Both the position numbers and the translations under genes were made by a program. From a virus, in UHGV virus genome UHGV-0325397: a stretch of DNA of 14,104 bases; one strand, given 5' to 3'. The notes beneath the pieces are model-generated. The model had not been told where the DNA came from and searched no databases. It saw nothing but the letters and a program-made list of their open reading frames with translations. Every line of letters starts with the position of its first letter. The stretch's first letter is position 1. Shown in pieces: positions 7,429-12,990 of this stretch.

Positions 7429-8073
7429 ATGACATACGAAAATGACAAATTCCAGGTTCTGAAGAGCATGAAGGTGCCAGATGATTTTAAATCAAATGGC
7501 TTTGTTTATGTGCTTTCGAATGAGTGCATGCCAGGAATTTATAAGATTGGGATGACTAAGCATTCACCAGAAGTTAGGGCTAAAGAAATTTCAGCCTCTA
7601 CTGGCGTTCCTAAGCCATTTAAGGTGATAGCAGCCTTTCATTCAAATAATCCCGCATCAGATGAAAAACTCATTCATAAAGCCTTTGCAAAAGAGAGGCT
7701 TAGTGATAATCGAGAGTTTTTCAAGCTTGAAGATAATGAGCTTTCTGAATCTCTAAATGAAATAAGGGCGCTGGTTGGCCCTGAAAGAAATGGCGAGACG
7801 GCAGAATACGCAATTTACGACTCATTCATTTCTTTTCGCCATGAAAATGAGCTTGATCTTAATGAGGAGCTTATAGAGCAAGGTCTGGGTAGTGTAGTTG
7901 GTCATCTTCCTGCGGTGAAAAATTTCCTTATTCGCGCCGGAATTGATTACGCGAAGCAACTGATAAGCAAATATAACTCATCGATAGTTATTAATACAGA
8001 TGGCAGTGTGGTGATGGTTAAGTCTCTTGAAGCCCAATGCTTTGATGCGGAGGTTGGAAATGAGCCTGGCTGA
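7429..8073 (+). CDS. GIY-YIG/T5orf172-like domain protein (214 aa), AT-rich accessory insert between cII and O; family assignment tentative
   Basis: N-terminal GFVYVLSNECMPGIYKIGMTKHSPEVRAKEI fits the T5orf172/GIY-YIG nuclease-like pattern as I remember it; visibly AT-rich versus its flanks; AGGAG 5 nt before the ATG; 3' end overlaps the O start by 14 nt. Confidence 0.5.
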   Translation: MTYENDKFQVLKSMKVPDDFKSNGFVYVLSNECMPGIYKIGMTKHSPEVRAKEISASTGVPKPFKVIAAFHSNNPASDEKLIHKAFAKERLSDNREFFKLEDNELSESLNEIRALVGPERNGETAEYAIYDSFISFRHENELDLNEELIEQGLGSVVGHLPAVKNFLIRAGIDYAKQLISKYNSSIVINTDGSVVMVKSLEAQCFDAEVGNEPG

Positions 8074-11098: not shown

Positions 11099-11816
11099 GT
11101 TAATAAATGGCAATGCCATCAAAATGACAAGCATTGAAATCGCTGAGTTGGTAGAAAGCCGCCATAGCAATGTAAAAGTATCCATAGATAGATTGGTGAA
11201 ACGTGGCGTTATCAAGCCTCCTGCATTGCAGCACACTAACATAATCAATGATTTAGGTGTTATTACCGGGAAGCGTTATTTCTACGTCTTCGAAGGCGAA
11301 CAAGGAAAGCGAGACAGTATTGTCGTTGTTGCCCAGTTGTCGCCAGAGTTCACCGCTCGTCTTGTTGACCGTTGGCGAGAGCTTGAAGAAACTGCGGTTA
11401 ATATCCCAAAAACGTTACCGGAAGCGTTGCGCCTTGCTGCTGATCTTGCTGAGCAGAAAATGCAACTGGAAAACCAGCTCGCAATTGCCGCACCTAAAGT
11501 TGAGTTTGCCGATCGCGTTGGCGAGGCCAGCGGAATTTTGATTGGAAACTTTGCAAAGGTTGTTGGTATTGGTCCAAACAAACTGTTTGCGTGGATGCGC
11601 GATCACAAAATCCTTATTGCTTCAGGTTCCCGGCGCAATGTGCCAATGCAGGAATATATGGATCGCGGCTATTTCACAGTGAAAGAAACAGCGGTCAACA
11701 CAAATCACGGAATACAGATATCGTTCACCACAAAAATCACCGGGCGTGGTCAACAGTGGCTGACCAGAAAGCTGCTCGATAACGGAATGCTGAAAGTAAC
11801 AGGGGAGGCTGCTTAA
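11091..11816 (+). CDS. Rha/KilAC-type phage regulatory (antirepressor-like) protein
   Basis: 241 aa; N-terminal MTSIEIAELVESRHSNVKVSIDRL fits a Rha/phage regulatory DNA-binding pattern; located in the nin region where some lambdoid phages carry roi/ant-like genes; assignment is from motif pattern only. Confidence 0.5.
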   Translation: MNELINGNAIKMTSIEIAELVESRHSNVKVSIDRLVKRGVIKPPALQHTNIINDLGVITGKRYFYVFEGEQGKRDSIVVVAQLSPEFTARLVDRWRELEETAVNIPKTLPEALRLAADLAEQKMQLENQLAIAAPKVEFADRVGEASGILIGNFAKVVGIGPNKLFAWMRDHKILIASGSRRNVPMQEYMDRGYFTVKETAVNTNHGIQISFTTKITGRGQQWLTRKLLDNGMLKVTGEAA

Positions 11817-12106
11817 TGGCTAACCTACGCAAAGAAGCGCGCAACAGAGAATGCCAGGTACGTATTTACGGCGTATGCAATGGTAATCCTGAAACTACAG
11901 TTCTGGCACATTACCGGATGGCTGGAATTTGCGGAACGGGAATGAAGCCTGACGACCTGATCGGCGCATGGGCTTGTAGTGCGTGTCACGATGAAATCGA
12001 CCGACGCACCCATAACCTCGACAACAAAGACGCCAGACTTTACCACCTCGAAGGTGTGATCAGGACGCAGGCGATACTGCTGAAGGAGGGAAAGATTAAG
12101 CCATGA
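11816..12106 (+). CDS. YbcO-like (DUF1364) Cys-rich putative nuclease
   Basis: MANLRKEARNRECQVRIYGVCNGNPETTVLAH...CSACHDEIDRRTH resembles E. coli DLP12 YbcO as I remember it; start overlaps the previous stop (TAATG). Confidence 0.6.
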   Translation: MANLRKEARNRECQVRIYGVCNGNPETTVLAHYRMAGICGTGMKPDDLIGAWACSACHDEIDRRTHNLDNKDARLYHLEGVIRTQAILLKEGKIKP

Positions 12107-12627
12107 ACGGTAAAAGATATCCAACACAAAAAGAAATCAATGAATTGTATGAATATAATAGCGAAACAGGTTTGTTTATATACAAGAGAAGAGAAAGTGT
12201 AAGAGAGTGCTGGAATTCAACATATGCCGGTAAGATTGCTGGTTCTATAGATGAAAAAGGATACGTTCGTATATCTGTAAATAAAAAAGTTTGTCGAGCT
12301 CATAGAATCGCATGGATATCCTTTTATGGAAGTGAACCTGATGGGGAAATTGACCACATAAATGGAATTAAAAGCGATAACAGAATATGCAATTTGCGCG
12401 TTGTAGATGATAAACAGAACTCAAGGAACAGAAAAAAGCCTATTAATAATCGCTCTGGAGTAATTGGTGTTGCCTACTATAAGAAGAATAAAAAGTGGGG
12501 CGCATATATAAACAGTGATAATAAAAAGATATTTCTTGGATTATACGATGACATATCTCTAGCCGTTAATGCCAGAAAATTGGCGGAATCACGATTGGGC
12601 TATCACCATAATCATGGGAGAGGATAA
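12103..12627 (+). CDS. HNH endonuclease (free-standing, homing-type), AT-rich insert
   Basis: HNH-type motif CRAHRIAW...GEIDHINGIKSDNRICNLRVV; strongly AT-rich relative to neighbours; sits between ybcO-like and rusA; ATGA start overlap. Confidence 0.8.
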   Translation: MNGKRYPTQKEINELYEYNSETGLFIYKRRESVRECWNSTYAGKIAGSIDEKGYVRISVNKKVCRAHRIAWISFYGSEPDGEIDHINGIKSDNRICNLRVVDDKQNSRNRKKPINNRSGVIGVAYYKKNKKWGAYINSDNKKIFLGLYDDISLAVNARKLAESRLGYHHNHGRG

Positions 12628-12990
12628 ATGGCAGAATACAGATTCACACTTCCGTACCCACCGTCGCTGAACACCTACTGGCGAAGACGGGGAAGCCAAT
12701 ACTACATCAGCGATAAAGGCCAGAAATACCGAAAAGACGTTCAGCAAATCATCCGCCAACTTAAGTTAGACATTTTCACCAAATCACGACTCCGCATCAA
12801 AGTCATCGCAGACGTTCCAGACTCCCGCCGCCGCGACCTCGATAACATCCTGAAAGGTTTACTCGACTCCCTTATCCACGCCGGATTTGCGGAAGACGAC
12901 GAGCAATTCGATGACATTCGCGTAATTCGTGGCGTGAAAGTACCAGGCGGAAGGCTTGGAATAAAAATCACCGAACTGGAGAACGTATGA
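12628..12990 (+). CDS. rusA: RusA Holliday-junction resolvase
   Basis: 120 aa; TLPYPPSLNTYWR...DSRRRDLDNILKGLLDSLIHAGF...GGRLGIKITELE matches the RusA family with its catalytic Asp cluster. Confidence 0.85.
   Translation: MAEYRFTLPYPPSLNTYWRRRGSQYYISDKGQKYRKDVQQIIRQLKLDIFTKSRLRIKVIADVPDSRRRDLDNILKGLLDSLIHAGFAEDDEQFDDIRVIRGVKVPGGRLGIKITELENV

What the first reader, a model, noticed from the sequence alone, without database searches (positions are those of the whole stretch)
12103..12627. AT-rich HNH endonuclease inserted between ybcO-like and rusA
The ORF carries a clear HNH motif and is markedly AT-rich, interrupting what are adjacent genes (ybcO then rusA) in the E. coli DLP12 prophage as I remember it. 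Its start and stop are nonetheless knitted into the operon (ATGA overlap upstream, TAA-ATG junction downstream). This is the signature of a mobile homing endonuclease, and it may cleave the insert-free allele in related phages.
Basis: partly seen in the sequence, partly recalled or inferred. Interest (0 to 1): 0.45.

Follow-up and report, generated by a model that had tools for sequence, protein, structure and literature searches.

The report
Free-standing HNH homing endonuclease gene in prophage
A 525-base AT-rich gene for an HNH-AP2 nuclease, of the kind that copies itself into rival genomes, sits exactly between two phage recombination genes in about 3% of related E. coli prophages; it is an uncharacterised member of a well-known class of selfish genes.

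Summary
ORF 12103-12627 (174 aa) is a Pfam HNH_3 nuclease. Its ATG overlaps the ybcO stop codon (ATGA) and its TAA abuts the rusA ATG. At 34.9% GC it is the most AT-rich stretch of the window.

It is a true presence/absence insertion of exactly 525 bp. It is found in 33 of 5,426 complete E. coli genomes and 19 IMG/VR contigs. About 960 E. coli genomes and every deposited phage examined (HK97, HK022, HK620, mEp phages) have the intact ybcO-ATGA-rusA junction.

The modelled protein has an I-HmuI-like HNH core with the catalytic D84/H85/N106, followed by a C-terminal AP2 DNA-binding fold. This is the classic HNH-AP2 homing-endonuclease architecture.

Every filled allele also carries 11 substitutions in rusA nt 4-21. 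These are never seen together without the gene, so they are a candidate immunity or co-conversion tract. A decayed ortholog sits at the same ybcO junction in Symbiopectobacterium.

The decoupled flanks are normal for this highly recombining region and are not in themselves evidence of homing.

Verdict: a new member of a known kind, of modest interest.

The parts
11816..12106 (+). ybcO (DUF1364, His-Me finger putative nuclease). This is the left flank. Its TGA stop overlaps the ATG of the inserted gene.
   Evidence: Pfam YbcO E=5.5e-43. There are no fixed differences between filled and empty alleles anywhere in this gene.
12103..12627 (+). Inserted free-standing HNH-AP2 endonuclease gene, 174 aa; the 525-bp insertion equals the ORF. 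Domains: N-terminal beta-rich domain (res 1-60), HNH_3 core (res 65-108, nt 12295-12426), AP2-like three-strand-plus-helix domain (res ~119-165, nt ~12457-12597).
   Evidence: Pfam HNH_3 E=1e-16. AF2 model pLDDT 93.5. Foldseek hits: I-HmuI 1u3e E=3e-4, and AP2 domains at rmsd 1.2-1.4 A. The gene is absent from >95% of related loci. GC is 0.349.
12616..12624 (+). Shine-Dalgarno-like GGGAGAGGA inside the 3' end of the HNH ORF, 3 nt upstream of the rusA ATG. It would replace the ribosome-binding context that rusA loses through the insertion.
   Evidence: Read directly from the sequence; its function is inferred.
12631..12648 (+). rusA nt 4-21: a patch of 11 substitutions relative to empty alleles. 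GCAGAATACAGATTCACA replaces AACGAATATCAGTTTGTG, changing MNEYQFV to MAEYRFT. It is a candidate immunity determinant or co-converted donor flank.
   Evidence: Fixed in 20/20 distinct filled alleles; each single variant is at 0-3% in 97 empty alleles. The patch occurs only next to the HNH gene: 19/19 IMG/VR contigs, 33/33 E. coli genomes and 5/5 metagenome loci.
12628..12667 (+). rusA nt 1-40: the haplotype block that travels with the HNH gene. There is a single allele among all filled loci; nt 27, 33 and 40 are shared with a minority of empty alleles.
   Evidence: The first polymorphic site among filled alleles is rusA nt 45.
12628..12990 (+). rusA (Holliday-junction resolvase), the right flank; intact, 120 aa.
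   Evidence: Pfam RusA E=2.4e-16; PHROG 34 E=9.9e-53.

Best explanation
The ORF is a free-standing homing endonuclease gene of the HNH_3-AP2 (I-HmuI-like, 'HNN-AP2') class. It is lodged at the ybcO|rusA gene boundary of a lambdoid prophage.

Shown:
- It is a precise 525-bp insertion, present in a small minority of otherwise about 97% identical nin regions.
- It has no intron, transposon ends or target-site duplication.
- Its catalytic residues are conserved and it is under purifying selection.
- It sits in many different phage backgrounds.

Inferred:
- It is transcribed with the delayed-early pR/nin operon. It is translated by coupling to ybcO (ATGA overlap), and its 3' end supplies a Shine-Dalgarno sequence for rusA, so the insertion is nearly cost-free.
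- During lytic growth in a cell that also holds an HNH-less relative (co-infection, or another prophage), the AP2 and N-terminal domains bind the empty junction or the first ~25 nt of rusA. The HNH site then nicks or cuts there.
- Repair from the HNH-carrying genome copies in the gene together with the adjacent rusA nt 1-21(-40).
- The carrier is protected because its own rusA 5' end differs at 11 of 18 positions and/or because the site is split by the insertion.
For: - Insertion geometry and empty sites.
- Frequency: 33/5426 genomes, always single-copy; 19 IMG/VR contigs; 5 metagenome contigs.
- Family membership: HNH_3. 31 of 45 aligned homologs hit Pfam AP2. The AF2 model has pLDDT 93.5. 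The best PDB match is the homing endonuclease I-HmuI, and the C-terminus superposes on AP2 domains.
- Catalytic residues: D84/H85/N106 align with I-HmuI D74/H75/N96. D84 and H85 are invariant and N106 nearly invariant (>=90%) in the family alignment.
- This group is classed as homing endonucleases, with AP2 as the specificity module (PMC5714182; PMC2248197; PMC10448857, citing Magnani 2004).
- Selection: 20/20 ORFs are intact, with 11 synonymous versus 6 non-synonymous polymorphisms.
- Young cassette in older flanks: nucleotide diversity (pi) is 0.78% in the HNH gene, against 4.2% in ybcO and 2.9% in rusA nt 41-363. Flank alleles are shared with empty loci. There are 18 upstream and 11 downstream architectures among 20 loci.
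- The substitution patch is exclusive to filled alleles.
- The same junction is occupied in a lineage whose ybcO is only 74% identical at the DNA level (Symbiopectobacterium).
- There are no transposon-like repeats and no intron RNA.
Against: - No cleavage, target site or biased inheritance has been measured.
- Linkage disequilibrium (LD) among empty alleles already falls to r2~0.02 beyond 50 nt. Rapid decoupling of the flanks and the variety of backgrounds are therefore expected from ordinary recombination in lambdoid phages and do not require homing.
- Frequency is low (about 3% of loci with this module). No deposited phage genome carries the gene.
- The patch could be a relic of a single ancestral import, not an immunity determinant. 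No donor rusA with that 5' end was found.
- The query itself does not reach Pfam's AP2 model at E<=0.01; AP2 is supported by homology and by the model.
- HNH+ genomes are not significantly depleted of co-resident empty sites (1 of 33).
Confidence: 0.6

Rival explanations
1. A relic homing-endonuclease gene. It entered the lambdoid gene pool once, bringing a stub of a foreign rusA 5' end. It no longer promotes its own transfer and is now shuffled passively by the very frequent homologous recombination among lambdoid prophages.
For: LD in this region decays within about 50 nt even among empty alleles, so passive shuffling explains the varied backgrounds. There is a single patch haplotype and a single left boundary in all copies, which is compatible with one founding event. 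Frequency is low. Decayed copies exist: one IS1-truncated in E. coli 1008S19 and a pseudogene in Symbiopectobacterium.
Against: All 20 distinct full-length alleles are intact. The catalytic residues are conserved and the polymorphism pattern is skewed towards synonymous changes (11:6). This argues for continuing selection on the protein, which for a gene with no evident phage function is most simply selection for homing.
Confidence: 0.25
2. A domesticated accessory nuclease. It would work with the nin-region recombination genes (NinB, YbcO, RusA), or act as a weapon against competing phages or host DNA, without copying itself.
For: It lies in a cluster of recombination and nuclease genes and is expressed as part of that operon, with no promoter or terminator of its own beyond chance. 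The protein is under purifying selection.
Against: The gene is sporadic, found in about 3% of otherwise near-identical modules. Its architecture is typical of a homing endonuclease. It is AT-rich relative to its flanks, as are 94% of 104 distant family members. The same family occurs at other, unrelated positions in related prophages.
Confidence: 0.12
3. The filled state is ancestral, and the empty junctions are precise deletions of the gene.
For: An orthologous copy at the same junction in a distant lineage shows that the association with ybcO is old.
Against: The ybcO-ATGA-rusA overlap is shared by deeply divergent rusA types, including DLP12. Diversity inside the gene is 4-5 times lower than in its flanks. 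The composition is foreign in both lineages. Hundreds of independent, perfectly precise deletions would be needed.
Confidence: 0.03

Closest known systems
I-HmuI (Bacillus phage SPO1, PDB 1U3E), His-Me finger group 2 (HNH_3 / zf-His_Me_endon)
   Same: It is the best solved-structure match by sequence (E=0.016) and by fold (E=3e-4, prob 1.0). Both share an N-terminal beta domain followed by an HNH core, with the same D-H...N catalytic triad positions. Both proteins are 174 aa.
   Different: I-HmuI is encoded inside a group I intron and uses a C-terminal helix-turn-helix module. This protein is free-standing between genes and ends in an AP2 fold. Identity is only about 24%. From my own knowledge, I-HmuI nicks one strand; whether this enzyme nicks or cuts both strands is unknown.
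HNH(HNN)-AP2 free-standing endonucleases of phages (Xanthomonas phages Xp10/OP1/Xop411, T5, T1, RB43; Magnani et al. 2004 class)
   Same: Same two-domain architecture, and the same motif set: HRxAW, DH, DNR, NLR, (E/Q)N, with no CxxC zinc dyads (PMC2248197). These genes are free-standing, variable in presence and prone to decay.
   Different: Those genes lie at varied positions in virulent phages, and no conserved flanks were found for them. Here the site is precisely defined, the host is a temperate lambdoid phage, and a linked flank polymorphism is visible. Nearest protein relatives outside E. coli are <=55% identical, apart from one pseudogene.
T4 free-standing homing endonucleases (Seg and Mob families, e.g. 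SegG, MobE)
   Same: The proposed mode of action is the same (from my own knowledge). The gene is inserted between conserved genes and cleaves in or near the neighbouring gene of a HEG-less relative. Flanking markers are co-converted, and the carrier is protected by sequence differences at the target.
   Different: Seg proteins are GIY-YIG enzymes. The Mob proteins fall in a different His-Me finger group from I-HmuI/HNH_3 (PMC5714182, Table 1). Their hosts are virulent phages. Activity has been shown for T4 enzymes and has not been shown here.
ICP1 'IPA-HNH' and T5orf172 homing endonuclease genes (Barth, Dunham & Seed 2023, PMC10448857)
   Same: HNH plus C-terminal AP2. The genes are located next to or within important genes and at boundaries of genetic exchange. 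The ybcO|rusA junction is itself a mosaic boundary.
   Different: IPA-HNH domains are too divergent for the Pfam HNH_3 model, whereas this protein is a canonical HNH_3 member. The host and phage type are also different.

Membership tests
HNH_3 / His-Me finger group 2 (I-HmuI-like) endonuclease | Match to the family profile above the curated threshold | tested here: met
   Pfam PF13392 60.7 bits against a cut-off of 24.8, E=1e-16, residues 65-108.
HNH_3 / His-Me finger group 2 (I-HmuI-like) endonuclease | Catalytic Asp-His pair and metal-binding Asn conserved | tested here: met
   D84/H85/N106 align with I-HmuI D74/H75/N96. D84, H85, N97 and N109 are invariant, and N106 is >=90% conserved, in 45 homologs. 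The roles of the I-HmuI residues are from my own knowledge of Shen et al. 2004.
HNH_3 / His-Me finger group 2 (I-HmuI-like) endonuclease | Beta-beta-alpha-metal fold | tested here: met
   AF2 model with pLDDT 93.5: strands 82-85 and 98-101, then helix 103-108. The top Foldseek hit is 1u3e.
HNH_3 / His-Me finger group 2 (I-HmuI-like) endonuclease | Metal-dependent DNA nicking or cleavage | not testable with these tools
   Requires purified protein.
HNH-AP2 homing endonucleases (Magnani 2004 class) | C-terminal AP2 DNA-binding domain after the HNH core | tested here: met
   The query alone does not reach Pfam AP2 at E<=0.01. However, 31 of 45 aligned homologs do in the same columns. The model has three strands plus a helix at residues 123-165. 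It superposes on the TEM1 and AtERF1 AP2 domains at rmsd 1.2-1.4 A over 45-50 residues.
Free-standing homing endonuclease gene (functional class) | Presence/absence polymorphism at one precise site between otherwise homologous genomes | tested here: met
   A 525-bp indel with identical boundaries in all copies. Filled in 33 genomes and empty in about 960.
Free-standing homing endonuclease gene (functional class) | Own start and stop codons; not within an intron or intein; no transposon ends | tested here: met
   ATG and TAA are its own. There is no Rfam family in the window. No terminal inverted repeats or target duplication flank the insert.
Free-standing homing endonuclease gene (functional class) | Enzyme cleaves the HEG-less allele at or near the insertion site | not testable with these tools
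   Needs an in vitro or in vivo cleavage assay on HK97/HK022-type junction DNA.
Free-standing homing endonuclease gene (functional class) | Carrier allele protected by sequence difference at the target | tested here: inconclusive
   An 11-substitution patch in rusA nt 4-21 is exclusive to carriers. Its role is untested. It may instead be a stub of donor DNA.
Free-standing homing endonuclease gene (functional class) | Endonuclease-dependent, super-Mendelian transfer with co-conversion of flanks | tested here: inconclusive
   The cassette has low diversity and sits in diverse, shared flank alleles. But LD in the empty population decays just as fast, so ordinary recombination cannot be excluded.

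The most novel reading that the evidence does not exclude
The gene is an actively homing element of temperate lambdoid phages, and its recognition site is the first ~21 nt of rusA at the ybcO|rusA boundary. The 11-substitution patch is the immunity determinant. If so, this would be a naturally occurring, genetically tractable homing-endonuclease/target pair in the lambda-HK97 group, with HK97, HK022 and HK620 as ready-made recipients. Such nucleases (together with the T5orf172 gene between cII and O in the same prophage) could help create the module boundaries of lambdoid mosaicism.
Probability: 0.4. Interest if true: 0.5.

Novelty: new member of a known kind. Interest (0 to 1): 0.3.

Why it matters
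Homing endonucleases have been studied almost entirely in virulent phages (T4, T5, SPO1, ICP1). This is a clean, well-sampled case in temperate lambdoid phages:
- the insertion site is exact;
- there are hundreds of natural empty alleles;
- there is a candidate immunity patch of defined sequence;
- classic laboratory phages (HK97, HK022, HK620) would serve as recipients.

If the enzyme is active, one could test directly whether site-specific nucleases contribute to the gene-boundary mosaicism of lambdoid phages. It would also add an HNH-AP2 enzyme with a known target to a class where few targets are known. If the enzyme is inactive, the finding is simply a correctly annotated, ordinary selfish gene.

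Tried and rejected
1. Donor search. Exact and codon-degenerate DNA patterns for a rusA beginning MAEYRFTLPY were run against IMG/VR. They found only the HNH-carrying contigs. The origin of the patch is unresolved.

2. Intermediate relatives. The 5.8-billion protein search, IMG/VR, GTDB genomes and JGI metagenomes gave only ~99% copies, then relatives at <=55% identity. The one exception is a Symbiopectobacterium pseudogene.

3. Flank decoupling as evidence of homing: rejected as specific evidence. LD among empty alleles decays equally fast.

4. Depletion of co-resident empty sites in HNH+ genomes. One of 33 has a second place, against my rough estimate of about 3 expected (from the roughly 10% of matching genomes that hold a second place). 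I do not consider this significant, and the genomes are clonally related.

5. Transposon or IS origin: no terminal repeats or target duplication.

6. Intron-encoded gene: no Rfam hit, and the coding context is continuous.

7. Own promoter or terminator: nothing above shuffled expectation.

8. AT-richness as proof of recent import: weakened. 94% of 104 distant family members are also AT-poorer in GC than their flanks. The Symbiopectobacterium ortholog keeps 36-38% GC next to a 57% GC ybcO.

9. Terminase-associated HNH (HK97 gp74-type): rejected on position (nin region, not next to the terminase) and on Pfam family and architecture (HNH_3 plus AP2).

Full report
**What is in the sequence**

The ORF at 12103-12627 (+ strand, 174 aa) is present exactly as described. 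Its ATG overlaps the TGA of the upstream gene (ATGA at 12103-12106). Its TAA (12625-12627) directly abuts the ATG of the downstream gene.

Pfam identifies the three genes as follows:
- YbcO/DUF1364, E=5.5e-43;
- HNH_3, E=1e-16, 60.7 bits against a cut-off of 24.8, residues 65-108;
- RusA, E=2.4e-16.

PHROGs agrees: phrog_99 'HNH endonuclease', E=7e-63.

The wider window is the early half of a lambdoid prophage. It contains an integrase, P22-type Abc2, SSB, a Rad52-like recombinase and a gp17 exclusion protein. These are followed by the cI-like repressor, Cro, CII, O, a helicase loader, NinB/E/F, a KilAC antirepressor, YbcO, HNH, RusA, NinH and Q.

The ORF has GC 0.349 and GC3 0.286. The other 22 genes average GC 0.473 (sd 0.035), giving z=-3.6. 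Only 0.12% of all 525-nt windows are as low.

**It is a precise insertion with abundant empty sites**

A 1601-bp query around the ORF matched 1339 of 5426 complete E. coli genomes, but only 32 over its full length. In the others the match is split into two pieces spanning 1076 bp, which is 1601 minus 525. Annotated examples (strains E4 and LF82) show ybcO and rusA overlapping by ATGA. K-12 DLP12 shows the same arrangement.

Alignment of the junctions:
- empty: ...AAGYC ATGAACGAATATCAGTTTGTGCTTCC...
- filled: ...AAGYC ATGAACGgtaaaag...[HNH]...ggaTAA ATGGCAGAATACAGATTCACACTTCC...

The HNH DNA itself occurs in 33 genomes, always as a single chromosomal copy. Thirty-two copies are full length at >=98.9% identity, and one is truncated by IS1.

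None of the 296 matching deposited phage records holds the gene. HK97, HK022, HK620, HK75, CUS-3 and the mEp phages are all empty. JGI/ENA metagenomes add 5 filled loci with identical junctions.

No inverted terminal repeats or target-site duplication flank the insert. No Rfam family, and hence no group I or II intron, is detected in the window. It is therefore neither a transposon nor an intron-borne gene.

**What the protein is**

In the 5.8-billion-protein collection, the E. coli cluster (99% identity, 145 members, named 'HNH endonuclease') is followed by a gap. The next relatives are <=55% identical.

In an alignment of 45 homologs, H67, D84, H85, N87, D92, N93, N97 and N109 are invariant, and N106 is >=90% conserved. 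All 45 match HNH_3, and 31 also match Pfam AP2 in the C-terminal columns. The query itself does not reach the AP2 model.

An AlphaFold2 model built on this alignment is confident (pLDDT 93.5, pTM 0.80). It shows an N-terminal beta-rich domain, a beta-beta-alpha core, and a C-terminal three-stranded sheet packed on a long helix.

Foldseek against the PDB puts the homing endonuclease I-HmuI first (1u3e, E=3e-4). Plant AP2/ERF domains follow (TEM1, WRI1, AtERF1), superposing at 1.2-1.4 A over 45-50 residues. The phmmer alignment to I-HmuI places D84/H85/N106 on D74/H75/N96.

Published classifications place HNH_3/I-HmuI proteins in a homing-endonuclease group in which AP2 is a specificity module (PMC5714182). 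The literature describes free-standing 'HNN-AP2' genes with the same motif set (HRxAW, DH, DNR, NLR, EN/QN, no CxxC) in phages Xp10/OP1/Xop411, T5, T1 and RB43 (PMC2248197). HNH-AP2 HEGs are also described in ICP1 (PMC10448857, citing Magnani et al. 2004).

**Population structure around the insertion**

I compared 20 distinct filled loci with 97-117 distinct empty loci.
- Across +/-700 nt, the only sites whose allele frequency differs by more than 0.5 between the two classes are rusA nt 4-40.
- Eleven substitutions in nt 4-21 are fixed in filled alleles. Each is at 0-3% in empty ones. They change MNEYQFV to MAEYRFT.
- nt 27, 33 and 40 are fixed in filled alleles and at 3-14% in empty ones.
- Nothing in ybcO differs.

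The patch never occurs without the gene. This holds for 19/19 IMG/VR contigs, including with a codon-degenerate pattern. It also holds for 33/33 E. coli genomes, where the patch is always immediately 3' of the HNH gene.

Diversity among filled alleles:

| Segment | Nucleotide diversity (pi) | Alleles |
|---|---|---|
| HNH gene | 0.78% | 12 |
| rusA nt 1-40 | 0 | 1 |
| ybcO | 4.2% | 19 |
| rest of rusA | 2.9% | 19 |

For 15-18 of the 20 filled loci, the nearest flank allele belongs to an empty locus, and several are identical to one. The surrounding 2.5 kb upstream and 1.1 kb downstream fall into 18 and 11 different architectures. All 20 ORFs are intact, with 11 synonymous and 6 non-synonymous polymorphisms.

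One control matters here. Among empty alleles, LD falls from r2=0.58 at <=10 nt to about 0.02 beyond 50 nt. Decoupled flanks and many backgrounds are thus what ordinary recombination produces in this region. They are compatible with homing but are not specific evidence for it.

**An older association with this site**

A 1.2-kb Symbiopectobacterium contig carries a ybcO homolog (81% aa identity). It is followed, through the same ATGA overlap, by an ortholog of this HNH gene (71-76% aa, 74-76% nt). That ortholog is interrupted by a ~190-nt insertion and truncated before the AP2 domain.

There, ybcO is 56.7% GC and the HNH parts are 36-38% GC. The same junction is therefore occupied in a lineage whose flank is about 26% diverged, and the copy shows the decay stage expected in the homing-endonuclease life cycle.

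In 104 loci of distant family members, the HNH ORF is on average 6.8 GC points below its flanks, and 94% are lower (Wilcoxon p=2e-17). AT-richness is a family trait, not a clock for recent import.

**Most likely mechanism**

Shown:
- a precise, foreign-composition, single-gene insertion at a gene boundary;
- sporadic distribution;
- homing-endonuclease architecture with an intact active site;
- purifying selection;
- an exclusive substitution patch in the adjacent 21 nt.

Inferred:
- The gene is expressed with the delayed-early nin operon. No promoter or terminator of its own exceeds chance.
- It uses the ybcO stop/start overlap that rusA uses in empty phages. Its 3' end (GGGAGAGGA, 12616-12624) provides a ribosome-binding site for rusA.
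- In a cell containing both a carrier and an HNH-less relative, the enzyme would bind and nick or cut the empty junction or the rusA 5' end. Recombinational repair would then copy in the gene plus rusA nt 1-21(-40).
- The carrier's patch, or the split site, would give immunity.

I put this at about 0.6. The main rival, at about 0.25, is a relic that now moves only passively. Domestication as an accessory nuclease is at about 0.12. 'Empties are deletions' is at about 0.03; it is contradicted by the shared ATGA junction across divergent rusA types and by the diversity contrast.

**Novelty and verdict**

The protein is already annotated as an HNH endonuclease in RefSeq, and its class is well known. 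I found no paper describing this element, its site or its patch.

It is a new, uncharacterised member of a known kind. Interest is modest (0.3). Its value is as a tractable homing system in lambdoid phages and as a possible contributor to mosaic boundaries.

Noticed in passing
window 7429-8073 (+): A 214-aa ORF between cII and the replication O gene matches Pfam T5orf172 (E=1.4e-15) and MUG113, a GIY-YIG-like family treated as homing endonucleases (PMC10448857). It has the second-lowest GC of the genes in the window (0.406). Only 8 of 750 matching E. coli genomes cover the whole region. In many others homology stops at the end of cII, or cII is directly followed by the replication gene. It is probably a second free-standing HEG in the same prophage.
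   Followed up: partly
L246 143-1055 (Symbiopectobacterium sp., JBPETA010000371.1): A ybcO homolog is followed, through the same ATGA overlap, by a pseudogenised ortholog of this HNH gene (74-76% nt identity). The ortholog has a ~190-nt internal insertion and has lost its AP2 end. GC is 0.57 for ybcO and 0.36-0.38 for the HNH parts.
   Followed up: yes
L024 2977-3528 (same IMG/VR contig as L103): An HNH-carrying phage contig holds a second HNH_3-AP2 gene (183 aa, 44% identical). It lies between the Rz lysis gene and a downstream 172-aa ORF that I did not scan but which resembles the Rha regulators annotated at this position in L001 and L002. Related endonuclease genes thus occupy other intergenic sites of the same phages.
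   Followed up: partly
L243 1748-2938 (E. coli 1008S19, NZ_CP147050.1): One E. coli copy of the HNH gene lacks its first 87 nt and lies about 55 nt from an IS1A transposase gene. Everything between cII and the HNH gene has been deleted. The rusA patch is retained.
   Followed up: yes
L244 2315-2827 and 4383-4850 (E. coli LZYWN_4): Other lambdoid prophages carry distantly related HNH endonuclease genes in the early-left region, one next to kil and one after recT.
   Followed up: no
window 12100-12110 and the equivalent junction in L001, L225-L236: The same conserved ybcO 3' end (CTGAAGGAGGGRAAGATTAAGYCATG) is followed by at least three different rusA types, starting MNEYQFVLPYPP, MNEYEFVLPWPP and MKTYRIKLPWPP. 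The ybcO|rusA ATGA junction is therefore itself a mosaic recombination boundary.
   Followed up: partly
ybcO-rusA region of 105 empty loci (L104-L242): Linkage disequilibrium decays extremely fast in this part of lambdoid genomes: r2 is 0.58 at <=10 nt, 0.15 at 26-50 nt and about 0.02 beyond 50 nt. This implies very short exchange tracts.
   Followed up: partly
NZ_CP054407.1 (E. coli KCJ3K291): This is the only HNH-positive complete genome that has a second ybcO-rusA place in the same chromosome. It may be a natural case of donor and recipient alleles residing together. The second place was not inspected.
   Followed up: no
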